A stretch of 26,844 nucleotides of DNA from Candidatus Omnitrophota bacterium. GTDB taxonomy: Bacteria > Omnitrophota > Gorgyraeia > Gygaellales > Profunditerraquicolaceae. Position 1 is the first letter of the stretch, and the number at the start of each line of letters is the position of its first letter. A program made the position numbers and the translations under genes. This document shows positions 2 through 26,842 of the stretch, in pieces. The stretch lies in assembly GCA_028717985.1 (NCBI GenBank), contig JAQUMS010000001.1:1-26844 (forward strand), given 5' to 3'. A model generated the notes under the pieces. It saw only the letters and a program-made list of their open reading frames with translations, had not been told where the DNA came from and made no database searches.

Positions 2-307
2 AGCCATCAAGAGAGAAACAGCGGCGCCGAAATAAATACTCGACTGAAACATGGATTTAAATTTCACCGCGAACTTTTTATCAAAAGCTTCTTCAAGCAG
101 GAACTGAACAACGGCAGTAAAGAATACAACTTTATACGCATATTCTCCGAATGCAAAGCCGTTTAGCACAACTGACTGATAAAAATAAGCCGTGTTAAAC
201 ACAATATCCCGGTTCATAGCTACCATACCTATGATAAACGTAAGTATATTAAATATCCTCAGATTGGTCTTAGTATACAATTTTAAGACTGCATTATCCG
301 TGGCTGA
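2..307 (-). other. Start of a hydrophobic, probably multi-pass membrane module (truncated by the window edge)
   Basis: After DGG at 308-316: LRIFNILTFIIGMVAM, VVFFTAVVQFLL, SIYFGAAVSLLMA, which are hydrophobic stretches of TM-like character. Family not assignable. Confidence 0.55.
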
Positions 308-3300
308 ACCTCCATCCTGCTCGAAAACTGATTTACCGGATGCCCCGTTAAATGTCATCGCGTCCCAATACATAAGAATATATTTTATGGCGCTGTTATT
401 CCAGGAGAAATCAACTTTGCGTAAATTTTCCAGTATTCGCAGCCAATGGTCTTCCTGAGAATACGTTTCCAGCGCCCTCTGGATCGCTTCCTGCAACGCT
501 TCAGGCGTCGGATCAAAAAACACAAAGCCGTATCCGGTCTTGCGCAAAGGATCATAATTTTCAATCGTATCCGCCAACCCTCCTACATACCGCACCACCG
601 CGGGCGTTCCGTAACGGGCAGCGATCATCTGAGTCAACCCGCACGGTTCATCAAGAGAGGGAACAAGGAAAATATCCGCGGAGGCGTATACGAGATGAAC
701 AATACTTTCATCAAGGAACTTAGGAAGGATGTACGCCCGGCCGCGGAAATCCCACTTCCCTTCAGGGTCGTATTCAAACGGCAGCCAACGAATCTGGTCA
801 ACAGACTGTTTGTCATATTCCCTGCCGGCAACAATGATCTGAGCGTTACGGTTTGCCTTCAAAATGTCGCGAATTTTAGCCGCAAGCAAACCTACTCCTT
901 TTTGGTCATCCAACCGGGCGATCAAAGCGATAACCGGCGCGGTCCGGTCAACTTTTAACCCTAATAATTTTTGGAGCACTTCCTTATTATTGCGTTTTTG
1001 CTCAAAACTTTCCCTGACATTGCCGTGCGCGAAGTCATACCGGAACGGTAAAATAGGATCAGTTGCCGGATTATAGAAATTATAATCAATACCGTTAATA
1101 ATACCGGAAAACCGGAATTCACGTGCTTTCTGTGATAACAACCAATCAAGATCCCTTCCGCCTTCGGCAGTAGTTAATTCGTACGCGTGGCGTTCGCTTA
1201 CGGTATTGGCTCTGTTGGATTTAACGATCCCGCCTTTCAATAAATTCATTGACCCGAAATTATCAAATACACCGCCATATTCATAGGGAAGATTCAACAG
1301 AGAGAACCGATCAAAAGAATGAACACCTTGATGCCGGATATTATTTATTGTCAGTATCGGCTGCATTCTGGAGAAATAATGCCTGAATTCGGGAAGCCCG
1401 TCTTTATAAACCAGAGATAACGCGCTGTCTTTATCATGCGCGTGAATAATATCGTAACTATTTTTATGTAATTCAGGGATATCTTTCATTGCCTGCAATG
1501 ATCCCCGTGATATAAGAATCGCCTGCTCAAGGCTTAGTTGATCCGAGTAAGGATATTCTGCCAATACACTGCCGCTTCCCACAGGTTCCAGCACATATCC
1601 GCGCAGGCGGCCTTTAAGATCGTGAATTCCCGGAAGAGTATGCAGGTTTGTCCTGTACACCTTCACTTCCACGGTCCAGGTACTGCCGATTGGAACCCAT
1701 ACGCTGCCGATATATTCGTAACGTAAATTTTGATCAGCGGGAGAATTAGTCGGCTTACTATATTTAAGGGTAAAGATATCAACATTATGCCCTATTTTAG
1801 CCAATTCCTTGGATAGACCATACCCGACATCGGCCAAACCTCCTACTTTATAGGTAAGACGGGTAACTTCAAGAGCAATTTCCGCGATCTGTAAACTCCG
1901 GAACGGCCTTTCCGGCCAGTCAGGGCGCAATAAAGTGATTACTTTCTTGAAATTAGCCGGCTGTAAATAATTACGTATATTTTTCCATGAACTTTCGTCG
2001 GCGGCGGGGATACGCAGACGGGAAACAGCCCGTAAAACAGTACTCATTAATTTAAGCGCTAATTCTTCGCTCGAAAAATCGTCTAATTTTTCAAAAATGT
2101 AGAGCGTCCGGCTGATAATATCAAAATACATTTCGGGAACCGGACGCGACGCTTCTTTAATAAGAATAATATTGCTTTCCCGTACCGCGCGGTACACATC
2201 TATTTTCCCAACTCCATACGGCAATTCCAATTCAATGCCGGCAATAAGAACCAAGGCATGCAGATACAGATCCACATCACGCTTCGCGGGATCCTTCCAT
2301 TGCGACATAATAACCGGATTCACTCCCTGGATACGGTATCCGCGTTCTTCCAGACGCGCTTTTTCTATCTCTGCATATGCGACATTAATTTCTTTTGTCT
2401 GACCGCGGGCTGATTTTTTCCGGCTGGTTCCGCCATCTTCAAGCACGCGCACTGAAATAGATTTAGCTTCTGCTCCAACTTTACGGATGGTAAACGCGAG
2501 CGGTTCAGCTATGGAAGCCAATAAATAATGGATATCATTCTCGGTTATATTCTCAAACATTTCCTTGGTCGGGACTACGATCTCTCCGCTTATCTCCTGC
2601 CAGCCGAAATCAAGGTATGTTTCATTGATAATAGGGAAAATCGATTTTCTCGGCAATATCACGATCTTTTTCTCCGGGCCGCTCCTCGCGAAGATCAGAT
2701 TATGCGGAATATTATTTCTTAAGAACTGAGCAATAATCATACTTGTCAGACGGGCGACTCCTAACGCGTTCTCCGAACGGACCACGTAACTTTCAGCCGG
2801 ATAATCGACTGTTTTTTCAAACAATACGCCGGAAATATCTTCAACCGTTTCGGTAGCGAATTTCTCCACCGGTATCACACCCCAATAATAGAATCCCTGG
2901 ATATGAAGATGAAACACCCTCGTTCCGCCGCCAAGGCTGTTAAAACCAAGCCTGAAATTGGAAGCCTTGCTCATATCAAGCAGTGCGAGCGCAACACGGA
3001 TCTCGCGTTCACTGATCACCTGAGGAAGGTTAGCTTTACGTTCCGGCACCATAAAGAAATTATAAGCGACTCGGGGCTGAATATTGATAAACAAATCCGT
3101 ATTAACTCCTCCCACGTTCAGCGACATCAGAAGCTCTTGCGGATTGGCTTTATGGAAATTAAATTTAGAAGGATTATAACCCTGGATAGGCGGCATCAAT
3201 TGTTTCATAAGATTTATCGTCATGGGCCGGTCCGGATGGAAAAGAACCTTGAATTTTCCTTCATCCCGTAAGGAAACGCGGGAAATGTCAAAACCAAATA

Positions 3301-24300: not shown

Positions 24301-26842
24301 CGGATTCATTTAACGCTTTGACCGCCTGACTGCTTGCCTTAGGATAATGTAACGACGTCTGGTCGAGTCTTACAAAATCACGGCTTGCCTTTTCTTCATC
24401 CGCACCTACACGATGATGAAAAAATATCTCCCAGACAAAATCATCGTGGATACTATCTGTCATTCTTGTCTGCGTCCTAATAGAATCCCCATTCATATAT
24501 ACACCTACAAGCGAGCTGTGTTCATAATCATAACTAACGGGTATAAACTGTGTTCCCTTCAACGCCAACAACTGCTCTACTGTGAAAAATTCTCCCGCCT
24601 GAACGCCTTTCTCGCCGATTAATCCGTTATCATATGCCGCTCCCATCAACAATAAATTAGCACTCGACATTTTCTTTAACGGAATTATACCTTTGCTGAT
24701 TAATTCACGGTCAAGCATCTTTCCTAGATTTAATATACTAGAGGTAAATACAAAAGAATCTTCAGGAATTTCAAAATTAACTCCTTCTTGGTTCAAGATT
24801 TCCCCGCTTTCTATTGCTGATCTTAATTGCGCTTTCCTGACAGGATTTGACATCGCGGAAAGCATTTCGGCAAGCCTTCTTTCCCATACGGGATAAACTT
24901 CTTCAGCGGTAATACGCCCTTTAGTTGTCACAAATACAGGCATTTCTTTAGGATTAGACTCGCACCAGAATAATGTTAGTATCTTAAAATTGTCATCGCT
25001 TAAGAATATTGCCAATCCCGACGTATCGCCCGGCGGGATAAAATAAATACCTAATTTATTGAATAAACTCGCCATAATTTCCCAGCTTGCTCCTCCATCA
25101 TCCGATGATGAAATAATACAAGCTAAAAGTCGTAAGCCTTTGGCGATAAATTGCTGTAGCAAAGTTGTAGTAGCCTTACCACCTCCACCTAAATAGGCGA
25201 TTTTCGGTGGTGCACGTCCAGATTTCCCTTTAAGTATCTCCTGTTTATATCTTAAATAATATCCATCCTGGAAATATCCCGCTAAGGTCCGGCTGATGCT
25301 AATCTGGGTCTCTTTATGCGCCGCTTCGATATCACGAATTAAATCTTCATTTGTTTTTTTCAAATGATCTTTATATAACCACTGTAAAAATGCGAGTGTA
25401 CGAGCAGCCCGAGGATCTGTTCCCGCATAAAAATCTATTAAATTCAAGCCGTGATGTTGCAAATAAATTCTATCTATTATTTTAAAATAATCATCTATAC
25501 AGGAAACAGTGTTATATGCTTGCATTACGTCCTGTAATGCCCTGTTTAATTCTTGGCCCTGAGCAACTTTCATTCCTTTCAAATAAAGCCTGGTCCATGT
25601 AGAACTTTTTAAATAAGTAAGATTAAATGAATCATAGGTTTCGCTTAAAAAATCAATTTTCTCTTTAAAAGTTAGATTGTTATATCGTCGGGAATTTAAT
25701 TGTTCCTCCAGATATAATAATGACGCTATCGAACAATAATCATGCGATTTATCTTTCAAATCTCTAAAGTTTCCGCCTTTGGATATTCCATCAAGGAAAT
25801 AATATATTGCTCCCAATCCAAAACCTATATGTTTAAAGGCACTCCCCGATATCAGCTGTTTATTTCTCCCGTTTACATCATTTATATAACGATGTATCCC
25901 AGGAACAAGTTTAAACGGTTCATCTTCCGAATAAACCTCAAGATTACCAAATAGTATTGCATCTTCCCCTTTAATCCCTCGCTCTTTTAGATAATCCTGC
26001 AACGCATGATCTTTACCCGTTTTAATATTCCTGATATCTATTGAAGTTACGCCGGATTCCCGGACTATTATTGTTTCTTTCAAATCAGGATTTTGTTCAA
26101 TTGCCGCCTTAATGTCTTTAAAATATGATTCTCGTAAAGATTGTTCTTTTGCCTCTAAATTAAAAACTTCCAATTTCCTTGAAGGAAGATATATCATACT
26201 TATACTGTATACTCTTCCGGAAATATCTTTGTGGAAAATTATCTCCAGATCTTTAAATGTAAAATTAGGATATTTATTTCTCCATACACTCTTGTTTTGT
26301 TGATATTCATCCCAATATTTTTTCTTTAAATCTTGCAGAATATTATTTATGGCAGATACGGACTTTTCGGTAATATATGTTTTTTCGTTATATGTGTTTT
26401 TAGTCAGAGGTATTCCGTATTCATTGAATTCCACCTTGAATGTTCCAGCTGACGCATATATTACCAAATTCTTTCTCACATCATACGGTATCAGCTCCAC
26501 GACTCTTGAATAAATACCCTTTTCTTTCGTATGATCGTCATCGTAATACCGTAAGTTACTAATCAGCACGATCTTCTGCCCTTTCCTCAGCAGTTCCACC
26601 AACGGCTCCCGTACAAAGCTTTCTTTTAATGTCCCTTTACGGAATTTGTCATACGGCAAAATTACTCCATCCGGACCTCCCAATACTATTACTTCCGGAT
26701 TCCCGCTCCTTTCGTAGCCGCCGTCATTTTCAATTTTAGAGGGTTCATGTTCAACCCTGATCTTCTCAATAACCCCAACCAGATTCTCATTCTCATACAA
26801 TGGACTCTGCGTCTCAATTCCTGTAACCTTGCTCTCATCTAT
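2..26842 (-). CDS. Giant multidomain protein, internal fragment (>=8,947 aa; start and stop both outside the window); DGG-delimited carbohydrate-metabolism and cell-envelope modules
   Basis: Manual translation of the minus-strand frame whose codons begin at + positions 2,5,8,... shows no TAA/TAG/TGA across the window. Recognisable enzyme motifs occur in this one frame from end to end (EPCGLTQ at 629-649, HLHIQ at 2897-2911, SDDGG three times, DGDGT at 14291-14305, STNTNEN near 23150). Confidence 0.96.
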   Translation of the reverse strand, partial: MDESKVTGIETQSPLYENENLVGVIEKIRVEHEPSKIENDGGYERSGNPEVIVLGGPDGVILPYDKFRKGTLKESFVREPLVELLRKGQKIVLISNLRYYDDDHTKEKGIYSRVVELIPYDVRKNLVIYASAGTFKVEFNEYGIPLTKNTYNEKTYITEKSVSAINNILQDLKKKYWDEYQQNKSVWRNKYPNFTFKDLEIIFHKDISGRVYSISMIYLPSRKLEVFNLEAKEQSLRESYFKDIKAAIEQNPDLKETIIVRESGVTSIDIRNIKTGKDHALQDYLKERGIKGEDAILFGNLEVYSEDEPFKLVPGIHRYINDVNGRNKQLISGSAFKHIGFGLGAIYYFLDGISKGGNFRDLKDKSHDYCSIASLLYLEEQLNSRRYNNLTFKEKIDFLSETYDSFNLTYLKSSTWTRLYLKGMKVAQGQELNRALQDVMQAYNTVSCIDDYFKIIDRIYLQHHGLNLIDFYAGTDPRAARTLAFLQWLYKDHLKKTNEDLIRDIEAAHKETQISISRTLAGYFQDGYYLRYKQEILKGKSGRAPPKIAYLGGGGKATTTLLQQFIAKGLRLLACIISSSDDGGASWEIMASLFNKLGIYFIPPGDTSGLAIFLSDDNFKILTLFWCESNPKEMPVFVTTKGRITAEEVYPVWERRLAEMLSAMSNPVRKAQLRSAIESGEILNQEGVNFEIPEDSFVFTSSILNLGKMLDRELISKGIIPLKKMSSANLLLMGAAYDNGLIGEKGVQAGEFFTVEQLLALKGTQFIPVSYDYEHSSLVGVYMNGDSIRTQTRMTDSIHDDFVWEIFFHHRVGADEEKASRDFVRLDQTSLHYPKASSQAVKALNESEAIIMGNGSLWTSLMPVLLYPEIAKELVSRRKAGVPVVFIAKIKADLETAKSIKILDNKGEPVDKAALSKDDKYTLNIKDQVSLGWQLEAVRRHVSRTLNQEVKIEDIISHVVVPDLKPETSEYLSTIIITGTDALAIKEGKAQVSKKVQGKQPLFLGTERESLEAVGIKIIDVPEDHITGIKKQKPLYENNYLADILIEITEAKHNDGGFFVDNGSLLKFMAETQFFGIVAGVGIGLAAGLWYAHKTGKLNEWLAGKKADPREQQAKALQTIADYLTMAHDKISVLPVYKADMTILLGNDDLSTMRHASGLYTEGKTDKILVSGAQGRLTAPLIENVRKAGFGNVFENIEVLSEAEIIAKLLTLHVVPEEKIILETKSTNTNENIKNAKEMLLSSGLLSFGDYTVILMSKPLQMRISYLDFIQHFVQQVAPLRVHVYTYAPYTVTGTDQEIIDALAEINKIQEYSVKGWISLESISANVLEAAEFLKKSLNVSVQETKNPSDQEAKNTNDGGETSAQVLKGSRDQVVQGPSTEYSAQSKGNNGFAKRKSKEQRTTSYLLSSMSYRDGGDNRQIHPITRKLFRHEVGVLRNMEVNPALSRLQRLLITRELSEIARFYTPSESDRELIENNIKNRQEENVNPKDEGRRTKDANSMSYRDGGDVEQGGEGQWMVDGRTDVTADGVELLRTEISRTRILELVKQLQNTVFAEETKHVLINRLENEDPLAGVRMAEALGELGVNDEAVISALSEALANRDTMIQAYRALIKLNAENFDLPKALVELSIDAEDMLVRYRAVNFLTEYLNDIGLQKNHKFTDENIVMELLQSAYAEKTMLVKIAKIKTLGTIPVEETYLVNRILIELKAYLFGKEAADQYGAEIKPVKLTRAVSNAMIGRFIRIAQMGDAMSISILTEMEPCLKAWLNRETRKPLQQTGKALLKSLGRTRDGLIHTFTTDYLFNSRPFIMGLGQVSMEEAMAELPAAHIAEVVKMNAEKAAEMMELFNTNDGGEFSPKDEGRRTKDANSKSYRDGGEVLANEGQGTFSLDARRFLVELDYVMRMLGISDYKRVVQILRTSIDSVAFVKGMAEAAGLGTDEAAEILEGVKFFRPVVEDYKLRQVKEYGKGEFADKKISVDIQAEGYGIEGGESSVEGGAITEYLRFMRETAGMVSFVFRDNMNDFTGRFLGLTAIKGASKYPDLKELIERLDAYFATVDLGRIEYVFTSGIGANEMYTHQLAWALNKYFEMRGIHVKWVVVNNPAHLKIIPAGANNKNTLIFEMSRSGSTKETVDFFNATKDRFKQRIVAANSGKLNEAGKELMKDADARILVIDDIPGDIGGRQMNRKTLMVYIPLYLGLVAGLKDVEEARKYLEYYVSTMAGANEELAYSNGLKSGGIKLAEMLFRQRMNGHNRFAIIYDNDLRFIAKEFLQLNNEGANKNIAGGTNNNVLVGYGLESDRTLYETVFEQAGNTQLPIFLLNRNNGNYRQAYEYAESLERRGIPVIIVSLDIKEDLRNNLEVIGRTSSLLQDMVVYFTYLTKQDANSNPAVKFVREITAAMFEIEKAKKARGDKDIRVTFEDVISKIQAKETENRIKSEKSIDVDKKDKTKRIIRRGYEEAEGEDFRTFMEAIVEVGTKLMIAESRVVRVLTSAIAEEVFKSDFAEAGGSKISDMEAAFGKSFMDAMRKTDNKPVTLNQQVVIETQDQDKMKISVAVEKGEEIETEGYSAAEALGMYLIKMFTGRKEKMMYMPLTFMEVDAENPKIKAIARGIVERFAGKGITCPLLGLPGVAHTGIEAIMSHPENVFNIAIVYTNTYGKGLGTQMVEENITVDDATYVYGIANVIRMALGGSPTIIFEVRDAKDLDEVKAILEPALDMLKAWMTSDGGYERSGNPEVIVLGGPDGVILPYDKFRKGTLKESFVREPLVELLRKGQKIVLISNLRYYDDDHTGEKGLATRIVKYLPYDVRKNLAVYASAGTFKVEYNEYGIPLTENDYNNSNYIPEKQVEVIESVLKEQANRFWAEYEGNKSLMRNKYPNYPFKKPEVILHRDAKGRVYSVSIIHLPSKKLEIVNIEEGEMSPREECCRGTIELLKKYHSLFWEEYTVRESGITSIDIRKRHTGKDHALRDYLLSREIEGKDALLFGNLQVYSEDLPFKNVEGVRRYINDIVEKTDENYEVEGFKHIGFGLGVVYYFLDGMSKGKTFVELREAGDYCLNAAETYLKRQNVKRVNRSLTFAERMEVLSEVYRQFNLNYLNRASWIDLYQLGIGMKRGEELYEALEEMKNIYEVSKTAEEYFAGADKIYGGREGIEFMKFYAGIDARAARTLGFLESVYKDNLKRNNRQLEEAVWDVKKNTGLSVGRILAGYFQDGYYQKYKESILEQYEGRGPPEKKGLLDLVYLGGGGKATTTFLQRLIAKGLRKIACIISSSDDGGASWEIMASLFKNLGMYFIPPGDASGLAIFLSNDNFKIFTLFWSESDADKMPEYVTTKGRITGEKLYPVWEKRLSEVLTAIEEPTQKEEIKSLIRKILKNPSEEFEKSTDYLIFLSSVLNLGELVDRELVGQGIIPLKKMSSANLLLMGAAYDMGLLSGGKDSQAVGFPNLDKLMALGETQFIPVSYDYEHSALVGKYENGGLVAAQTIMTDKAHKEFIREEYFTHRVDIGKEANNFIELDINSENYPKASRQAVEALSRAKAIVMGNGSLWTSLMPVLLYKEVAEELVNRRRLGVPVVYIAKMKADLETSKDVRIEKEGKVVESKDIKEEEEYELNISEQLTLNKQLEAITWHISKVLGREVKIEEIISHVIAPELSEDAKVKLGEVKIKGKDAKLVLQGSAQVSKHVKGGQPLFGEGEEADLQARGIEIVRIDESKVTGIETQSPLYENENLVGVIEKIRVEHEPSKIENDGGERKNNTIKNKDDKSSLEQKYKDAYKQVYKVSRAAVAKTRKDLGIAVCIDKDNNPLPLEGLSTIIRPDDENAKKILSIQQGLYGVLPESLQKKMIFVKEHDLHITLGVINNATPNNHDVILLLRNKVEDSFPGSLRLSGIKIGAFKGGIIILEFYPDGVSDYKIFDSINKGVKESFLEFNQFNPVLYHMTLFYVKELLTEEEHKILYEKIEEFRPLKQSVLLLVDNLYLEHFCASVNVYDHDIIGTFFNLKQKYNIISTLLSQELTEMLVEEGGRQIRKFLEKLSTGGKSAYADLSKVQGLWEAVEEYGKEPAKYSTETLLKRDSSSIPRIEVRGRNESSGEAAQVAIIGIPLNYREDTMKEFRRLPGAEKMSLKMGGFMTVEANIAGVDKALPIRYVRSHLVEILEVAGYEAGIVIDARKTMTIVMSDGDGTLYGKPTATENPILKKSAAYRALIEYLNAGGVYMLISGNDLGLTLQRILAEDALPVEIRNRFIVVANGAASLNVFDKEGNIKEYTGYRLNALNEEAEEQEELDAIYLGDDEKKGGNDWPAYEEMGFERSVSVTSKGKKDVMDIVHKNYVGGNEVGTGLVLKGAVEYAREHRGERLFGIKELEALIRISESEITAPSQNDGGLGMSRKEDYKQNLVLFERLYQKDADEVLQILKVEADHTGRFLDEIVAGIVGILEIKDSKSLYSNLNFTKLARAPPIEYIWIGGAGIRTTSFLKSLVNYFMKKAGDKYRNYKRLIVLAIDGVSDDGGHIRKLEDSLLNVPGWDKYPLATGDIGVFPSIFTLSDSKIELLTLKRITGKSVEEQIFENIKDITFRFRDNLPVDWNFFCANMFSVARRIDREWVAPGIITESLNGASFGVNRASWQNLFYVMSRYLTGELKKGNQHISNERRVYPGVYEMVGAINGLAVPCSFDQSSMAAILQGMGVKINDEVMVIGKANGNFYYTKVEGIVINVERIEDGKNVKERKIFFRTTPLKTDKFHLISRKGVSFTLGGKKIKLTVNKNGSVILRCNGEKFTISEDKGDEGKTFIRYRNQDYVLPTNTSWFFLKINHSFIEFKSRMVEEQTNISDAKDYHLTPIEKVIFRNVEMKAVGVQQGKIRTYAFRKSGEYSYANLEAIEGIRSTKQAIIFGDCSFVTSLLPNLMTEGIPQEMAARKDIPRIFMFKIMQDTESKGLSVIQQIELIERSIRMNTSFKSFKFKDICDYIVLFDPQEIDAATYWKFQALKEEQRKILEQPEIQKRIAIGELKYSKIVPEDPAEFNKDTLKEELARKGIKSYFVKVSDVKLSEINGKYAYKEESMIRILHEIVKDFSGEDGGEGKEDIKETRGILYGFLEETGLLPMFSNYGEFPESHQIFEAWKFYDEKLSSAQVYYFSKNVILGKADVEIEKDIISLHSCWFRSFVPGHEFGREIIARTFIRGAEIGELVYGQMPAEVERYYTLSQREEKELDEWDGIFDGSIAAGIQQQINNSDAYFKKIFTTELKSISLIYEDRKLGIIRESTLSFIARAKSEWIRYMYKKRFPEAKFNKNDIERLLKINFLINKYITLKSISKLNLETEKLLLINKILLDIENNLNDFLQLGDKNSPEFFEDRMGKDNFVNSKIVKDINYRDGGEKPVVRTMRIPSTPATWKRIENLKRFNHQMANGITAEDSRSQLEGSSLEEIYNGKGKGGIIITAVQPDQKVLKEMEIEAGMRPKTFFIKYDHKKLTLFYFTQKEAKEYQTRVALGDEEVILPDISVILKIAGVSVVHIDGKQYLGLADYDEFLERIKDIMQRKQSDGGIETYPGYLNGNVISPANAYSTGTEAGQRSYEIPWPFPDKQSIRGIHDPEWVKSFMVVWAISELNERSSRQITVNRILKKTKDVFEAHGFTWDRDHVISLLNGLRRRGLIVNAKSGNRKDFSVEEDKVTVDLNARLYAVWSRNVEDINVDLAEGFIHGKEEFLNVIAEYAKVTALWGRYPVEVNHVILRAIMFFDESSRKTMADWILSGPRNSALEDAIALNLDYERAVQDWLKMQAYELTGRSIYHLTAEISPMAGGLGRVELYHGNAMFELGADSIYVAPWYLHSRDSFGNLYTVDYGSLPNPITDIKPYATMETFIQGCKVRFEVAQGYLNVKRGDTVNLIPIYLIRDIPENYHCRIINILYEYSTCDCPASIWEFTEFFNKAALELIRKREVEKKHEKELLHEEYKSCVVDSNDAQTLPVAAFRKAFYSKKESIAPAPDKDEAFEIMNSALFSGTTHTYYNRAWADDFEFGKNFLRKAGIPDEWLWLFLHIFVDDYGTWKVVWDLTSGGVRASDVSKAVAAVHAFEVNKYDPAVDLFGVTNGDNYVYSSEFFRDALIKTGSRDYLHPTPLEILAAKSYVKKEMGLNQYQMVVGYFGRLVPEKAGRKRAFTNVNIEAMVKAGIQVVIYGVARWNPVMRGELEALEADLKSKKEKEPDVYSGRFIFKSQFSIDDQRKALAATDVQIQDSDRETEAAGSTESDIGANGGLQLATPYWEGMIPFMGDLVNREKMTGNVLMPEKDSAESYLKVVLWANEQYQSGELSQLQSYAYKISGFVDARYTAAAYLRFWHNGFRGKRAVVNPRVVGEIGIDSKYLTLTSTTSRGEISIFKDENEFYLMGKKKEVGNLAKNLILTLSISVDPEFAPFGSSRVPEDSIFVELVNDHGIRLKFSPVRKIYDNVIEYSLTIPEDFPLPFKGTVRATSGLWQQVRSFEIVPEEYDPLEGDELIETLCPVDFKVNDARNILFGKFGMFPFGFETSEGMQYANSAGIIGFMNKANMLLKNGTTIRTPFYHFIRYIAGLCEGCVTKDILVKHMRFIGSKQISDEEKMKELLELLKQFTRRSEYRLVESWVNGLTIEQMATLMIGNKNVNSFSFRTVSGPVTAETSGLKSFETVLKNLIANRHAEPVIENDFMDFIKYMDAMFKGVKGWEEIMAYLQTIAQEPVPSFLKAYFLFRFVEKLNEKMEENLVEAFINKATLDNAETVLNSGKFDMKPFEFYTLRGRWMADSAGLQDFLFTMKQVNGKGGVSFHDYMNYLRKLFEDMPDSKYMMDYLEYVGSHEIPEYKKFVALLEKLEVRLISRIQYYRMFSCEPAQSGFKCEVDLESPERFFDGGIADKNTVITSGIKNQSGNEILVTRKKMVMNIKDTLLKKADILGALRAPVSEVEAVKLISRYQLNIIMALANGTAYDSLQKGAQRKIAMENYEYLLSLMGVDAHFKKTIRTASHKIVNIKILQIKKTFSDKALAIKAKGEVMNILEARDIVGRYYYIIHALAVSLPYSSLREDFRNTIAEDSYEYLQDEMVNDKLFGMVITEADTMVLADKVKHESVWERAKILADSENGKLILKDSLKLIGNYAYVLLGLARGLKYVELHSNGLEMVSFHTYNEIVETLTGNPVFRSAVTGSISGIDVTPEYYKQVLEDKADLLLLQEGKISRALAEGLIGYHFEVMRILAEGMPYSSLSDYARRQLSAGIYYYLAREIVDDAGFGRKIVRASGKAINIRMEGIKNKILASARKIVNDEEIVGITQAKAKINHNYLIIHSLAHAQQFEISPVGRQKILVKASYEFLLGEMKRDEMFADYIIHADQMVIAKNGWRKILMGRAQVLAAKKNANMSPEDAVKLIGNTYFVLRGLSRSLAYQELDHCAWDNISQDEYENILGNKKRDIEFTKIVNNAMRNIYIHQRDITGSLIKKASLVLALDKRIDFWSARKLFGRYIYIFEGLADNVSYRGLDIEAQNLMTSAEYEALLIEVKKNDELKELIVQADSALGIGFWDKRLIILNKAKDIIAHKSSLTLAQASGIVGPYRYVLRALDENLPYHSVYAETRAVVSEKQYAVLQDLMKEDYLFAVMIRNAVSIIKVQKSNFNINEITHNPIMAVFLEIQSGDVSEKWKQSLSVRDQEYADIFEYLRENDDVLKRVLQLFMIGEVNSDVLARIIKDQLKQPQLKTVTGFGSHMLGAIHRALAKRGYVFDEEWVVTPKTVELLIGYTRNYRKAEGKIFNTDELYSVPSVLARLEEIAGISAVGIQYPLAPEKGAAFSASGFMPQGGIIAQNRENDGGDESEFDRNLKREWDRKFKQGLFGFDISRVSLRDEGKFKVLFHPDRPMTINLMKQLMPPIQGYNPSKFNFHKANPQELLMSLNVGGVNTDLFINIQPRVAYNFFMVPERKANLPQVISEREIRVALALLDMSKASNFRLGFNSLGGGTRVFHLHIQGFYYWGVIPVEKFATETVEDISGVLFEKTVDYPAESYVVRSENALGVARLTSMIIAQFLRNNIPHNLIFARSGPEKKIVILPRKSIFPIINETYLDFGWQEISGEIVVPTKEMFENITENDIHYLLASIAEPLAFTIRKVGAEAKSISVRVLEDGGTSRKKSARGQTKEINVAYAEIEKARLEERGYRIQGVNPVIMSQWKDPAKRDVDLYLHALVLIAGIELELPYGVGKIDVYRAVRESNIILIKEASRPVPEMYFDIISRTLYIFEKLDDFSSEELALKLMSTVLRAVSRLRIPAADESSWKNIRNYLQPANFKKVITLLRPDWPERPFRSLQIAEIALEVTRLTYKVGGLADVGYGLSKELAKIGHNVDIFTLKYSKPTNSPADQNLRYEYIGSVWVPIGSTWTVEVKVYRTNLHTLPGIHDLKGRLRGYVLEPVGSGSVLAEYPYSDQLSLEQAILISRGSLQAMKDIPELHKNSYDIIHAHDKDSALSLVYKDGLPEFRHYFSRMQPILTINNIRHQGVHSFDRFSLLNLPYEYGGVFDNFGSMNLLKGGIVKSNRANTVSERHAYELTTAEGGRDLDWLLSQKAREFRFSGIINGIDYNFYNPATDPILPFRYDFAHGNVRESFEQKRNNKEVLQKLLGLKVDRTAPVIALIARLDDQKGVGLLAAKIRDILKANRNAQIIVAGREYDKQSVDQIRWLPFEYDPEGKWDFRGRAYILPKFLDESIVHLVYASADIFLVPSLDEPCGLTQMIAARYGTPAVVRYVGGLADTIENYDPLRKTGYGFVFFDPTPEALQEAIQRALETYSQEDHWLRILENLRKVDFSWNNSAIKYILMYWDAMTFNGASGKSVFEQDGGSATDNAVLKLYTKTNLRIFNILTFIIGMVAMNRDIVFNTAYFYQSVVLNGFAFGEYAYKVVFFTAVVQFLLEEAFDKKFAVKFKSMFQSSIYFGAAVSLLMA
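368..1895 (-). other. glgA: GT5 glycogen/starch synthase domain
   Basis: LQIAEIALEVTRLTYKVGGLADV (KxGGL at 1835-1849), IIHAHD, LLKGGIVKSNRANTVS, GIINGIDY..NPATD, IARLDDQKG, VPSLDEPCGLTQMIAARYGT..VVRYVGGLADT, GFVF, DFSWNNSAIKYILMY. The full GlgA motif series is in the correct order. Confidence 0.95.
2438..3361 (-). other. HIT-superfamily GDP-hexose phosphorylase domain (GDP-L-galactose phosphorylase VTC2 / GDP-D-glucose phosphorylase GDPGP1-like)
   Basis: EWDRKFKQGLFGFD, YNPSKFNFHKANPQELL, LFINIQP..FFMVP..LPQVI, FRLGFNSLGGGTRVFHLHIQG (HxHxQ at 2897-2911), FGWQEISGEIVV. These parallel the VTC2 motifs EWEDR..GLFRYD, KFNFTK and FRLGYNSLGAFATINHLHFQ. DGG lies on both sides. Confidence 0.85.
3900..6040 (-). 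repeat. Eight degenerate ~90-aa helical protein repeats of unknown family
   Basis: The motif [LI][IVF]GxYxY(V/I)(L/I)x(A/G)LAxx(L/M)xY recurs with the Gly-position codon at 6029, 5753, 5483, 5213, 4940, 4670, 4400 and 4130. Spacings are 276, 270, 270, 273, 270, 270 and 270 nt. Confidence 0.8.
7442..9490 (-). other. Alpha-glucan phosphorylase (GT35)-like GT-B domain with C-terminal beta domain; PLP-lysine position is Asp
   Basis: YHLTAEISPMAGGLG, IYLIRDIPEN..ILY, DSNDAQ, FSGTTHT (8831-8842), SKAVAAVHAFEV, FGVTNG, GYFGRLVPEK, IQVVIYG, TDVQIQDSDRETEAAGSTESDIGANGGLQL (8105-8131 = EAAGSTESD), then a beta domain ending YSLTIP..GTVRA. Order and spacing match bacterial GlgP. Confidence 0.78.
10223..11608 (-). 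other. Two DGG-bounded modules of unknown function (294 aa at 10727-11608; 165 aa at 10223-10717)
   Basis: Open in the main frame and bounded by DGG at 11609, 10718 and 10214. No motif recognised. Part of the region is very AT-rich (8 G+C in the 60 nt of 10921-10980). Confidence 0.6.
11640..13470 (-). other. YvcK/GlmR (UPF0052, CofD-like) domain, divergent copy C, with a ~130-140 aa beta-rich insertion
   Basis: YIWIGGAGIRTT, LAIDGVSDDGGHIRKL, LATGDI, VEEQTNISD, ANLEAIEGIRSTKQAIIFGDCSFVTSLLPNLMTEGIPQEM, IPRIFMFKIMQDTES, AYKEESMIRIL. Confidence 0.75.
13750..14810 (-). other. HAD class IIB (Cof/PMM-like) phosphatase or mutase domain with non-canonical motif order
   Basis: EANIAGVDKA (motif III-like, 14414-14428) precedes SDGDGTL (motif I, 14291-14305), LISGN (motif II, 14177-14188), ANGA (14087-14098) and YLGDDEKKGGND (motif IV, 13943-13972). 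Confidence 0.8.
14880..15420 (-). other. 2H phosphoesterase (LigT / cyclic phosphodiesterase fold) domain
   Basis: Two Hx(T/S)-hydrophobic motifs 85 aa apart: DLHITLG (15272-15283) and LYHMTLF (15017-15028), preceded by EGLSTII. AT-rich segment. Confidence 0.75.
15588..15714. repeat. Perfect direct repeat of 26718-26844 (end of the YvcK module including the DGG codons; the match runs off the window)
   Basis: 127/127 identical, offset 11130 nt (in frame). Confidence 0.97.
15600..17130 (-). other. yvcK: YvcK/GlmR (UPF0052, CofD-like) domain, copy B
   Basis: LVYLGGGGKATT, ACIISSSDDGGASW, FIPPGD, SSANLLLMGA, QFIPVSYD, YPKASRQAVEALSRAKAIVMGNGSLWTSLMPVLLYKEVAEEL..PVVYIAK..LET. Confidence 0.85.
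17740..18652 (-). other. Degenerate (pseudo-)HAD IIB domain, copy B
   Basis: VIVLGGPDGVIL (motif I with the nucleophile Asp replaced by Gly), IVLISN, VYASAG, SGITSIDIRKRHTGKDHAL (motif III), LLFGNLQVYSEDLPF (motif IV, GD changed to GN). Confidence 0.65.
18464..18661. repeat. Near-identical direct repeat of 26528-26725 (start of the HAD-YvcK module up to the DGG codons)
   Basis: 198 nt with 4 mismatches, all synonymous; 18549-18661 is a perfect match. Offset 8064 nt. Confidence 0.95.
18670..19230 (-). other. Second, partial PGI-like C-terminal (SIS) segment
   Basis: MMYMP..ARGIVERFAGKGITCPLLGLPGVAHTGIEAIMSHPENVFNIAIV..ALGGSPTIIFEV parallels the PGI segment Y..L..QL.AESLGK.G..P....G..DQHS..Q...GP.D...A...GRP.I.I. 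It ends at DGG 18653. Confidence 0.5.
19640..20790 (-). other. pgi: Phosphoglucose isomerase (SIS)-like domain
   Basis: VFTSGIGANEM (20621-20638), LIFEMSRSGSTKET (20444-20470), IPGDIGGRQ (20291-20305), AIIYDNDLRFIAKEFLQLNNEGANK (19997-20023), YLTKQDANSNPAVKFVR (equivalent to NPFDQPGVE..K). Confidence 0.75.
21211..21272. repeat. 62-nt direct-repeat cassette copy 1, containing (CGTCCTT)4 and the RDGG codons
   Basis: Identical to 22321-22382 except one base (21231 T vs 22341 A). Encodes PKDEGRRTKDANSKSYRDGG. Confidence 0.97.
21290..22321 (-). other. Alpha-helical module with a HEAT/PBS-lyase-like repeat
   Basis: LINRLENEDPLAGVRMAEALGELGVNDEAVISALSEALANRDTMIQAYRALIKL (about 22010-22160). The module is flanked by the two 62-nt cassettes. 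Confidence 0.6.
22321..22382. repeat. 62-nt direct-repeat cassette copy 2, containing (CGTCCTT)4 and the RDGG codons
   Basis: 61/62 identical to 21211-21272, offset 1110 nt (in frame). Encodes PKDEGRRTKDANSMSYRDGG. Confidence 0.97.
22604..22830. repeat. Degenerate 7-nt-periodic tracts forming low-complexity in-frame linkers
   Basis: atagctc-atagatg-atagcag-atagctc-gtagttc-tttgctc-tttgctc; tactctg-tgcgcta-tactctg-tactcgg; tacttgg-tctcttg; tcttggt-cgcttgg-gttcttg-gtctctt. They lie between and next to DGG 22595 and DGG 22763. Confidence 0.75.
22850..23490 (-). other. YdcF / DUF218 (ElyC/SanA-like) domain
   Basis: IADYL..KADMTILLGNDDL..ASGLYTEGKTDKILVSGAQGR..SEAEIIAK..VPEEKIILETKSTNTNENIKNAKEML..VILMSKPLQMR. 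Confidence 0.85.
23563..23625 (-). other. Single predicted transmembrane helix preceding the YdcF domain
   Basis: FFGIVAGVGIGLAAGLWYA, uncharged and Gly-rich, followed by HKTGK. Confidence 0.75.
23700..25205 (-). other. yvcK: YvcK/GlmR (UPF0052, CofD-like) domain, copy A
   Basis: KIAYLGGGGKATT, ACIISSSDDGGASW, FIPPGD, SSANLLLMGA, YPKASSQAVKALNESEAIIMGNGSLWTSLMPVLLYPEIAKEL. Paralogous to 15600-17130 with many synonymous differences. Confidence 0.85.
25780..26716 (-). other. Degenerate (pseudo-)HAD IIB domain, copy A
   Basis: Same GGPDGVIL, IVLISN, SGVTSIDIRNIKTGKDHAL and ILFGNLEVYSEDEPF motifs as copy B. Confidence 0.65.

What the first reader, a model, noticed from the sequence alone, without database searches (positions are those of the whole stretch)
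2..26842. Hidden giant ORF (>8,900 aa, open at both ends) missed by the ORF track
Seen: one minus-strand frame has no stop in 26.8 kb, and at least a dozen recognisable domains lie in it. Known: giant genes of tens of kb are characteristic of Omnitrophota, including predatory or host-associated members such as Ca. Velamenicoccus archaeovorus. Inference: this is a slice of such a protein, whose true length may be several times larger.
Basis: partly seen in the sequence, partly recalled or inferred. Interest (0 to 1): 0.85.

Follow-up and report, generated by a model that had tools for sequence, protein, structure and literature searches.

The report
Fragment of a punctuated giant Omnitrophota gene
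The 26.8-kb contig is one unbroken piece of a giant multi-enzyme gene of an uncultured Omnitrophota bacterium, a kind already described, but its protein-sized modules are separated by a strict Asp-Gly-Gly mark that is a concrete candidate for where such giant proteins are cut.

Summary
The minus frame 2..26842 has no stop in 8,947 codons, while the other five frames have 266-787 stops. The window is a whole contig of a 1.63-Mb landfill MAG. The MAG's RpoB is 81% identical to a 'Candidatus Omnitrophica' MAG. The frame is coding: it contains GlgA, three CofD/YvcK domains and DUF218, and 30 of 40 listed differences from a ~95% relative fall at third codon positions. It is only a slice. Its C-terminus joins contig C52 in phase (at least ~11,400 aa). 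Thirty-five contigs (62,184 aa) are open end to end. Relatives in the same family have frames of 31,476-68,606 aa. Giant multi-enzyme proteins are already described in Omnitrophota (West-Roberts 2023; Nielsen & Lui 2026), so the finding itself is a new member of a known kind.

The added value is the junction mark. Seventeen [N/S]-D-G-G sites (20 DGG observed against 2.4 expected, with varied codons) delimit 16 complete units of 23-1,336 aa. Homology blocks stop at these sites. Alternative joints in other samples and a gene-conversion tract start exactly there. Relatives carry SSSP[LIV] or D-x-A-M at the same boundaries. Catalytically intact C39 (double-glycine) peptidase domains lie in sister fragments. 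Cleavage is inferred, not shown. This scan has already reported analogous marks (RSExR, GASLG, GARLA, DxAMTT) on other Omnitrophota DNA. Module order in the 13.7-26.8 kb region is not secure.

The parts
2..26842 (-). Stop-free reading frame of 8,947 codons, open at both ends (P0001); a fragment of a giant modular gene
   Evidence: Of 40 listed differences from ~95% relatives, 30 are at codon position 3.
26717..26842 (-). First 42 residues: a copy of the tail of module B ending in NDGG. The last 127 nt are 100% identical to 15588-15714, marking an assembly break at a repeat.
   Evidence: repeat D4, spacing 11,130 nt = 3,710 codons.
23672..26716 (-). Module A (aa 43-1057): HAD-IIB-like domain + helical domain + CofD/YvcK-like domain
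   Evidence: Pfam CofD 84.7 bits; Hydrolase_3 weak. NCBIfam YvcK and Cof-type HAD. Profile hit to UPF0052 structure 2q7x, E 1.8e-15.
22763..23671 (-). Module aa 1058-1360: one TM helix (aa 1074-1092) followed by DUF218
   Evidence: Pfam DUF218 52.8 bits; hydropathy scan.
22322..22762 (-). Two short DGG-bounded spacers (56 and 91 aa). The second carries the repeat ending in SYR-DGG and a 7-nt tandem (CGTCCTT x4.3 at 22351-22380).
   Evidence: (repeat D7).
21281..22321 (-). HEAT-repeat module (aa 1508-1854)
   Evidence: Pfam HEAT_2, E 1e-4, 23 bits, below the cut-off. A 66% paralogue lies on C268.
21212..21280 (-). 23-aa spacer bounded by two DGG marks, containing the second 7-nt tandem (21241-21270)
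18653..21211 (-). Module aa 1878-2730: SIS/phosphoglucose-isomerase-like (weak)
   Evidence: NCBIfam TIGR02128, E 2e-4. No PDB hit. A 33% relative lies in G010:C27, and a 99% copy of its last 98 aa lies on C268.
15587..18652 (-). Module B (aa 2731-3752): paralogue of A (58% aa identity). Its first ~40 codons after DGG are 99% identical to A at the nucleotide level.
13691..15586 (-). Module aa 3753-4384: by eye two HxT motifs (2H-phosphoesterase-like) plus a DxDxT HAD-IIB-like domain; only a weak Pfam PMM hit
   Evidence: PMM, E 0.017; no PDB hit; motifs read.
11609..13690 (-). Module aa 4385-5078: third, divergent CofD-like domain
   Evidence: Pfam CofD 40.2 bits; NCBIfam CofD_rel_GAK, E 7e-8.
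10214..11608 (-). Two modules with no recognisable family (297 and 168 aa); lowest GC3 in the frame (0.24 and 0.32)
   Evidence: The single-sequence AF2 model was uninformative (pLDDT 34).
6206..10213 (-). Module aa 5544-6879 (1,336 aa): possible divergent glycogen-synthase-like GT-B domain (lead only)
   Evidence: Atlas 0.90 with 160 shared features. No Pfam, NCBIfam or PDB hit.
3362..6205 (-). Module aa 6880-7827: helical repeat region with no family match
2429..3361 (-). Module aa 7828-8138: GDPGP1/DUF4922-like NDP-hexose phosphorylase (HIT superfamily)
   Evidence: Atlas 0.96 with 212 shared features. No Pfam or PDB hit by sequence.
308..2428 (-). Module aa 8139-8845: 180-aa N-terminal extension plus full-length glycogen synthase GlgA (GT5)
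   Evidence: TIGR02095 334 bits against a cut-off of 328. Pfam GT5 and GT1. A 69% orthologue in G052:C75 has DGG at both ends.
2..307 (-). Hydrophobic tail after the last DGG; continues in phase into contig C52 (multi-TM region)

Best explanation
SHOWN: The window is a real coding fragment of a giant modular gene of an Omnitrophota bacterium from a landfill metagenome. The fragment is at least 8,947 codons, and about 11,400 with contig C52. The gene is a multi-enzyme giant, of the 'Archaeovorin' type or class 1 'multi-enzyme metabolic cluster' type. It is an in-frame concatenation of protein-sized units, 16 of them complete (23-1,336 aa, median about 490). Many of the units look like whole enzymes of sugar-phosphate and alpha-glucan metabolism: HAD+YvcK-like x2, a third CofD-like, TM+DUF218, HEAT, PGI-like, GDPGP1-like and GlgA. 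The units are separated by a strict [N/S/F]-D-G-G-[D/E/N] mark. That mark is selected at the protein level, and the modules behave as exchangeable cassettes at it.

INFERRED (about 45%): The polypeptide is made as one membrane-associated chain and then cut after Gly-Gly at these marks by the C39-type (double-glycine) cysteine peptidase domains encoded in the same giant-gene fragments. This would release individual enzymes and small spacer peptides, making it a bacterial polyprotein.
For: Coding and real:
- There are 0 stops in this frame against 266-787 in the others.
- Curated-threshold hits to CofD, DUF218, GT5/GT1 and GlgA lie in this frame.
- The same DNA is present in independent landfill, activated-sludge and sludge assemblies. 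One ~95%-identical contig spans 6.9 kb without net indels, and 30 of 40 listed differences are at third codon positions.
- There is no excess of promoter-like or terminator-like sites.

Giant, and Omnitrophota:
-; literature.

The mark:
- DGG occurs 20 times against 2.4 expected in C1, and 95 against 16 in the 35 open contigs. Codons are varied (GAY GGN GGN).
- The logo shows Asn at P4 enriched 6.4-fold, and D/E/N at P1' in 45 of 91 sites.
- The NDGG[DE] DNA pattern occurs 15 times here (control 0), against 0-6 in each of 80 other genera of the family.

The mark delimits autonomous units:
- Full-length homology blocks start and end 0-14 aa from DGG, and only 1 of 16 HSPs crosses a mark.
- The G052 orthologue of the GlgA module is DGG-flanked at both ends.
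- The GlgA module of G018 lies between two SSPV marks, and the HAD+CofD modules of G010 lie between SSP[IV] marks.
- Database homologues of the same module are flanked by NDGG (P0004), SSSP (P0005, P0008, P0012) or D-x-A-M (P0010, P0011).

Recombination at marks:
- Alternative joints 13690<->18651 and 13690<->26715 fall exactly after DGG on both sides and stay in frame.
- The A/B paralogues are 30% identical (nt) before the mark and 99% for the first 40 codons after it.
- C268 is 99% identical up to NDGG and then different.
- GC3 steps between modules, from 0.24 to 0.49.

Protease:
- The MAG has four C39 domains, three of them inside fully open contigs, all keeping the Cys, His and Asp.
- A C39 domain lies at aa ~170-290 of the complete 68,606-aa G009 protein.
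- West-Roberts et al. proposed C39 cleavage but state that the cleavage points are unknown.

Topology argument (inference):
- A single TM helix at aa 1074-1092 would place the paralogous nucleotide-sugar-type modules A and B on opposite sides of the membrane if the chain stayed intact.
Against: - No proteomic, transcript or biochemical evidence of cleavage exists here, and no RNA run was listed.
- C39 domains are also present in relatives whose marks are SSP rather than GG, so C39 presence does not track the mark.
- Classical C39 substrates have hydrophobic residues at -4, -7 and -12. Here P4 is mostly Asn or Ser.
- TM helices are only about 1.6-fold enriched just after marks.
- G008's 31,476-aa frame shows no mark at all.
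- Module order and copy number between about 13.7 and 26.8 kb are uncertain. Independent contigs break or branch at several marks, and the contig ends in a 127-nt repeat.
- Several enzyme assignments (PGI-like, HAD, second GT5-like) are weak.
Confidence: 0.8

Rival explanations
1. The giant protein stays intact as a membrane-tethered chain of enzymes (a metabolon on a string). DGG would be a recognised hinge, docking or modification mark rather than a cut site.
For: The published view leaves open that the proteins work as one chain. C39 presence does not correlate with mark type. G008 has no mark. DGG and SSP are both strong turn formers (general knowledge).
Against: Simple linkers are normally heterogeneous, whereas this is an exact tripeptide with P4 and P1' preferences, maintained with varied codons at 90+ sites. 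Different exact marks sit at homologous junctions in other lineages. An intact chain would place paralogous modules A and B on opposite sides of the single TM helix. Spacers of 23-91 aa bounded by two marks have no obvious role in a scaffold.
Confidence: 0.3
2. The long frame is an assembly artefact: a chimera of shorter genes or strains stitched together at repeats.
For: The contig ends in a 127-nt exact repeat of an internal stretch. Logan contigs break or branch at 13690, 15588, about 21200 and 22344, and alternative joints exist. A 99% module copy with another neighbour lies on C268.
Against: Nowhere in 26.8 kb is there a stop or a plausible gene start/stop pair. Independent contigs bridge the marks at 10213, 10717, 11608 (X1, X3), 13690 (X3), 18652 (X2), 21280 and 22321 (X1), and 23671 (X2). 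All alternative joints are in frame and mark-to-mark. Relatives on long contigs have complete frames of 31-69 kaa. A mis-join could change module order but would not create the open frame.
Confidence: 0.04
3. The marks act during translation or at the RNA level (peptide-bond skipping, internal initiation at SD-like GGNGG), yielding separate proteins without a protease.
For: GAYGGNGGN is purine- and G-rich, and some copies read GGAGG.
Against: Codons vary at all three positions, so there is no conserved RNA motif. Only one mark is followed by a nearby Met. Relatives use SSSP or DxAM marks with unrelated codons. An earlier check in this scan priced bond skipping at 3 in 100 for an analogous mark (e1-2031463). 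There is no excess of promoter-like sites.
Confidence: 0.03

Closest known systems
Omnitrophota giant proteins: 'Archaeovorins' (West-Roberts et al. 2023, bioRxiv 10.1101/2023.11.21.568195) and class 1 'multi-enzyme metabolic clusters' (Nielsen & Lui 2026, bioRxiv 10.64898/2026.06.07.730766)
   Same: Same phylum. The protein is very long, membrane-associated and multi-domain. It has HEAT repeats, GT5 glycogen-synthase and GT1 domains, glucose-phosphate-isomerase-like, HAD and HIT-type content, and C39 peptidase domains in the same gene family. Much of the sequence is Pfam-dark. The gene is fragmented in short-read MAGs.
   Different: Neither paper reports junction marks or cleavage points. Here a strict [N/S]-D-G-G mark delimits the units, with SSSP[LIV] or DxAM at homologous junctions in relatives. 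No SecA DEAD-like domain was found in this 80%-complete MAG, though the complete G009 relative has one.
Viral polyproteins and precursors cut after Gly-Gly by papain-like or Ulp-like cysteine proteases (coronavirus PLpro LxGG, adenovirus protease, ASFV pS273R) - recalled from general knowledge
   Same: Many whole proteins are encoded in one frame. A short recurrent motif ending in Gly-Gly sits at each junction. A cysteine protease is encoded in cis. Short spacer peptides lie between double sites.
   Different: This is a bacterial chromosomal gene more than ten times longer than those polyproteins. The cargo is metabolic enzymes. Cleavage is not demonstrated, and there is no sequence relationship.
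Double-glycine leader processing by C39 peptidase domains of ABC exporters (bacteriocins, RTX-type systems)
   Same: C39 domains with an intact Cys/His/Asp are present in sister fragments. The candidate scissile position follows Gly-Gly.
   Different: Classical substrates are short N-terminal leaders with hydrophobic residues at -4, -7 and -12, cut once during export. Here there would be many internal sites with Asn/Ser at P4 and Asp at P3, and no ABC transporter fusion has been shown.
MARTX toxins (autoprocessing multi-effector proteins)
   Same: One very large protein carries several unrelated functional modules that are released by an in-cis cysteine protease at short inter-module sites. 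Modules are shuffled between strains.
   Different: The MARTX protease is an inositol-hexakisphosphate-activated C80 domain cutting after Leu. Its cargo is toxin effectors delivered into host cells. No such domains were seen here.

Membership tests
Omnitrophota giant proteins, Archaeovorin type (West-Roberts 2023) | Encoded in an Omnitrophota genome | tested here: met
   RpoB is 81% identical to a Ca. Omnitrophica MAG, with the next best match at 64%. The nearest module relatives lie in giant frames of the same GTDB family.
Omnitrophota giant proteins, Archaeovorin type (West-Roberts 2023) | Giant length (their set: genes over 90 kb; over 30,000 aa) | tested here: inconclusive
   The window gives 8,947 aa open at both ends, or about 11,400 with C52. 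There are 62,184 aa of fully open contigs in the MAG, but it is unknown how many genes these form.
Omnitrophota giant proteins, Archaeovorin type (West-Roberts 2023) | Domain set: HEAT repeats, GT5/GT1 glycosyltransferases, sugar-phosphate enzymes | tested here: met
   GT5 + GT1/GlgA pass the cut-offs. HEAT_2 and PGI-like are weak. HAD, CofD and GDPGP1-like content is present.
Omnitrophota giant proteins, Archaeovorin type (West-Roberts 2023) | C39 peptidase domain (N-terminal region) in the giant protein | tested here: inconclusive
   There is none in the window. Three lie in other fully open contigs of the MAG (C170, C32, C294), with the catalytic residues kept. Whether they belong to the same gene is unknown.
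Omnitrophota giant proteins, Archaeovorin type (West-Roberts 2023) | Divergent SecA DEAD-like domain | tested here: inconclusive
   No PF07517 match was found anywhere in the MAG, not even canonical SecA, and the MAG is 80% complete. The complete G009 relative has a divergent copy at 55.8 bits.
Omnitrophota giant proteins, Archaeovorin type (West-Roberts 2023) | Transmembrane segments along the chain | tested here: met
   A TM helix lies at aa 1074-1092, and the hydrophobic C-terminal tail continues into the multi-TM start of C52. This rests on a hydropathy scan only.
Class 1 'multi-enzyme metabolic cluster' long proteins (Nielsen & Lui 2026) | Many distinct Pfam families tile the chain with none dominating by copy number; sugar-metabolism module (PF08323, PF00534) | tested here: met
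   CofD, DUF218, HEAT_2, Hydrolase_3, PF08323 and PF00534 are present. The highest copy number is 3, for CofD.
Class 1 'multi-enzyme metabolic cluster' long proteins (Nielsen & Lui 2026) | Catalogue threshold of 10,000 aa or more | tested here: inconclusive
   8,947 aa are observed, and about 11,400 aa are inferred through the 38-nt in-phase overlap with C52 (1 mismatch).
Proteolytically processed polyprotein | Recurrent short motif at every junction between autonomous proteins | tested here: met
   Seventeen marks occur in the window. Homology blocks end at them, and orthologous junctions are conserved in G052 and P0004.
Proteolytically processed polyprotein | Protease encoded in cis with matching specificity | tested here: inconclusive
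   Intact C39 domains lie in sister fragments. Their specificity for x-D-G-G is untested, and C39 is also present in lineages with SSP marks.
Proteolytically processed polyprotein | Demonstrated cleavage products | not testable with these tools
   No proteomic data were available, and no RNA run was listed.

The most novel reading that the evidence does not exclude
The [N/S]-D-G-G marks are the cleavage sites of a bacterial polyprotein. The giant chain would be cut after Gly-Gly by its own C39-type peptidase domains into about one enzyme per 500-700 residues plus small spacer peptides. SSSP[LIV], DxAM and the other marks seen by this scan would be lineage-specific versions of the same code, co-evolving with the protease. 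The marks would also serve as the safe in-frame breakpoints at which cassettes are exchanged. This would answer the stated open question of where, and whether, Omnitrophota giant proteins are cut.
Probability: 0.4. Interest if true: 0.8.

Novelty: new member of a known kind. Interest (0 to 1): 0.5.

Why it matters
In itself, a 9-kaa open fragment in an Omnitrophota MAG is ordinary for this phylum. According to Nielsen & Lui 2026, about a quarter of Omnitrophota contigs in some samples carry proteins of 10 kaa or more.

What matters is that the fragment is unusually legible. It shows that these giants are chains of whole proteins with an exact punctuation mark. It shows that the mark is under protein-level selection, and that it changes between lineages at homologous junctions (DGG, DNGG, SSSP[LIV], DxAM). 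It also shows that recombination and gene conversion begin at the mark.

The literature says explicitly that cleavage points are unknown, and that this has blocked structural and functional dissection. The marks provide rational cut points for splitting giants in silico, and a directly testable hypothesis: peptides ending in ...DGG in metaproteomes, and C39 assays.

There is also a practical warning. Short-read contigs of such genes are single paths through a repeat-rich graph, so module order and copy number should not be trusted without long reads.

Tried and rejected
- The search for related loci with the two-paralogue alignment picked uninformative patterns and found nothing.
- Single-sequence PDB searches for four Pfam-dark modules returned nothing.
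- Pfam on the membrane module at the C1/C52 joint returned nothing.
- The single-sequence AlphaFold2 model of aa 5079-5543 was useless (pLDDT 34), so no fold search was made.
- The word-indexed search for other giants carrying the GlgA module found only one protein.
- A Shine-Dalgarno or RNA-level reading of GAYGGNGGN was rejected because the codons vary, no start codons follow, and relatives use unrelated marks.
- Signal-anchor enrichment after marks was rejected as evidence, being only 1.6-fold.
- A correlation of C39 or S8 presence with mark type was rejected. C39 is in all five relatives searched, and S8 occurs only as ordinary-size ORFs in G000.
- The marks reported elsewhere by the scan (RSExR, GASLG, GARLA, DxAMT) are absent from this family's frames.
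- Contig-end overlap scaffolding beyond C52 found only 25-29-nt overlaps between other contigs and none for C1's high end.
- No Rfam family was found in the window.
- No RNA run was listed.

Full report
**1. Observation**

With open ends allowed, the ORF list shows a single frame, 2..26842 on the minus strand. It has 8,947 codons and is open at both ends. The translation has no stop. The other five frames contain 266-787 stops, and their longest open stretch is 224 codons, so chance is excluded. The window is the whole of contig C1 of a 1.63-Mb, 299-contig, 80%-complete MAG. The frame was "hidden" only because frames that run off both ends are not listed by default.

**2. It is coding**

These families pass curated cut-offs in this frame:
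- CofD three times, DUF218, and Glyco_transf_5 plus Glycos_transf_1.
- A full-length GlgA match, TIGR02095, 334 bits against a cut-off of 328.
- A 17-sequence profile of the repeated module hits solved YvcK/UPF0052 structures (2q7x, E 1.8e-15).

Weaker assignments are:
- HEAT_2, HAD-IIB and SIS/PGI.
- A GDPGP1/DUF4922-like NDP-hexose phosphorylase (atlas 0.96).
- A possible second GT5-like domain (atlas 0.90).

About 40% of the protein has no family.

The same DNA occurs in independent landfill, activated-sludge and sludge metagenome assemblies. A ~95%-identical contig covers 6845-13731 with no net indel, and 30 of 40 listed differences fall at third codon positions. Promoter-like and terminator-like sites are at background level. 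No RNA run was listed.

**3. Where it comes from, and how long it is**

The MAG's RpoB fragment is 81% identical to a "Candidatus Omnitrophica" MAG, with the next best match at 64%.

Genomes of the same GTDB family carry giant frames:
- G010:C5 is a 53.6-kb contig, entirely open (17,867 aa), with three to four copies of the HAD+CofD module.
- G009:C1 holds a complete 68,606-aa gene at 129,221-335,038. It has a C39 domain at aa ~170-290 and a divergent SecA DEAD-like domain.
- G008:C1 has a frame of 31,476 aa, and G018:C2 one of at least 52,518 aa.

In this MAG, 35 contigs (62,184 aa, 186.6 kb) are open from end to end. The last 12 residues of C1 equal the first 12 of fully open C52, in phase (38 nt, 1 mismatch), and a multi-TM region continues across the joint.

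The phenomenon is published. West-Roberts et al. 2023 describe Archaeovorins with HEAT, GT5, PGI-like and C39 content. Nielsen & Lui 2026 describe class 1 "multi-enzyme metabolic clusters" of up to 147,155 aa.

**4. Assembly caveat**

The last 127 nt of the contig are identical to 15588-15714, at 3,710 codons' distance. This looks like a k-mer-sized branch point of the assembly graph (inference).

Independent Logan contigs bridge the marks at these positions:
- 10213, 10717 and 11608 (X1, X3)
- 13690 (X3)
- 18652 (X2)
- 21280 and 22321 (X1)
- 23671 (X2)

Many contigs also end at marks, however. Alternative joints occur at 13690<->18651 (X8, and minor in X1) and at 13690<->26715 (X3). Contig C268 carries a 99% copy of the end of the PGI-like module, followed after NDGG by a different module.

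The open frame is therefore safe. Module order and copy number between about 13.7 and 26.8 kb are one path among several.

**5. Anatomy: a punctuated chain**

The tripeptide DGG occurs 20 times against 2.4 expected. Three of these are the CofD active-site SDDGG. The other 17 divide the chain into 16 complete units of 23-1,336 aa, with a median of about 490. Codons vary (GAY GGN GGN), so selection acts on the peptide.

Across the 35 open contigs DGG occurs 95 times against 16 expected. The consensus is [N/S/F]-D-G-G-[D/E/N]. The NDGG[DE] DNA pattern occurs 15 times in this MAG (control 0), against 0-6 in each of 80 other genera of the family.

The units behave as autonomous cassettes:
- Full-length homology blocks to other giant frames begin and end 0-14 aa from a mark, and only 1 of 16 crosses one.
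- The 69% orthologue of the GlgA unit in G052 has DGG at both ends.
- The MAG and 38 of 40 family genomes also have an ordinary stand-alone glgA, so the embedded copy is an extra paralogue.
- GC3 steps from unit to unit, between 0.24 and 0.49.
- Paralogues A and B are unrelated before the mark. They are 99% identical for 40 codons after it, then decay to about 50-60%.
- The alternative joints in other samples are mark-to-mark and in frame.

**6. Other lineages use other marks at the same places**

- G010 has no junction DGG but has SSP 16 times against 2.3 expected, sitting just before its HAD+CofD modules.
- G018 has 53 SSP[LIV] sites at a median spacing of 708 aa, and its GlgA unit lies between two of them.
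- G009 has GSV-DNGG-S 15 times against 0.6 expected, clustered at aa 21,000-29,200, where its CofD-like hit lies.
- G008 shows no mark.

An exhaustive profile search of 1.84 billion representatives found only 19 strong matches to the HAD+CofD module. Their flanks carry NDGG (P0004), SSSP (P0005, P0008, P0012) or D-x-A-M (P0010, P0011).

This scan's earlier follow-ups on other genomes reported analogous marks (RSExR, GASLG, GARLA, DxAMTT). Those marks are absent from this family. DGG/DNGG and SSSP[LIV] thus extend a phenomenon that the scan has already met on other DNA. I could not find it in the literature.

**7. Mechanism**

Shown: the modular, punctuated, recombining architecture.

Inferred: processing. 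The MAG has four C39 peptidase domains, three of them in fully open contigs, and all keep the Cys, His and Asp. C39 enzymes cut after Gly-Gly (established knowledge). West-Roberts et al. proposed C39 cleavage but lacked cleavage points.

Three further features fit a polyprotein:
- A single TM helix at aa 1074-1092, opening a TM+DUF218 unit, would put paralogues A and B on opposite sides of the membrane in an intact chain.
- The units are protein-sized.
- Spacers of 23-91 aa are bounded by two marks.

Against this reading:
- C39 is present in SSP-type relatives too.
- P4 is not hydrophobic, unlike classical leaders.
- There are no expression or peptide data.

I put cleavage at about 0.4-0.45, an intact scaffold with recognised hinges at about 0.3, an assembly chimera at about 0.04, and translational or RNA mechanisms at about 0.03.

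**8. Verdict**

The finding is a new member of a known kind. Its interest comes from the mark, which offers testable cut points for a question the literature calls open.

Noticed in passing
window 21241-21270 and 22351-22380: Two perfect 7-nt tandem arrays (CGTCCTT x4.3) lie inside coding spacers (peptide KDEGRRTKDA), within 66-nt direct repeats that are 97% identical. Slippage by one unit would shift the frame of everything downstream. Independent contigs break at these places.
   Followed up: partly
window 26517-26725 vs 18453-18661: A gene-conversion tract links paralogous modules A and B. The first ~40 codons after the DGG mark are 99% identical (98% at third positions). Sequence before the mark is unrelated, and the rest of the modules has saturated third positions.
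   Followed up: yes
window, per module (e.g. 10718-11608 GC3 0.24; 18653-21211 GC3 0.49): GC3 changes stepwise at module boundaries (0.24-0.49; genome GC 0.435), and paralogues A and B differ (0.32 against 0.46). This is a compositional mosaic suggesting cassettes of different age or origin.
   Followed up: partly
G000:C268 (L122) 2-298 and 383-1459: A second contig carries a 99%-identical copy of the last 98 aa of the PGI-like module. After NDGG it continues into a different spacer and a 66%-identical HEAT module. Near-identical cassettes with different neighbours therefore occur within one MAG.
   Followed up: partly
window aa 543, 3231, 4456 (nt about 25211-25222, 17147-17158, 13472-13483): The motif R-[A/G]-P-P (3 observed against 0.06 expected) sits 3-12 residues before the first Rossmann strand (YLGGGG or IGGAG) of all three CofD-like domains. 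It recurs before other domains in relatives: 6 against 0.16 in G010:C5, and 8 against 1.2 in G009.
   Followed up: partly
P0002 (4,945 aa, ENA metagenome protein): This other multi-enzyme protein pairs GDPGP1-like and GlgA modules with GalE, UGDH, GT2 and kinase modules. It separates them by a repeated ~100-aa domain carrying HExxH (EGHELFHLL). A related small domain (IHPxLLARxxxHE) precedes the HAD+CofD module in P0008, P0010, P0014 and P0016. It may be an embedded metalloprotease-like separator.
   Followed up: no
G000 contigs C9, C32, C49, C71, C170, C212: The DGG-poor open contigs of the same MAG are tandem-repeat scaffolds. Tetrapeptides such as FQSN, MFQS and GHKG are enriched 200-400-fold. 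The MAG thus holds both multi-enzyme and repeat-scaffold giant content.
   Followed up: no
G018:C2 (L135-L143), frame of at least 52,518 aa: There are 53 SSP[LIV] sites (SSSP 36 observed against 0.6 expected) at a median spacing of 708 aa, usually preceded by S, G or A. This is the clearest example of the alternative mark in this family.
   Followed up: partly
G000:C162:2518-3573: An ordinary stand-alone glgA (463 aa, 38% identical to the embedded GlgA module) is present in this MAG and in 38 of 40 family genomes. The giant-embedded enzymes therefore duplicate housekeeping functions rather than replace them.
   Followed up: partly
window 3362-6205: A 948-aa unit of helical repeats has no Pfam, NCBIfam or other match. 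I did not analyse it.
   Followed up: no
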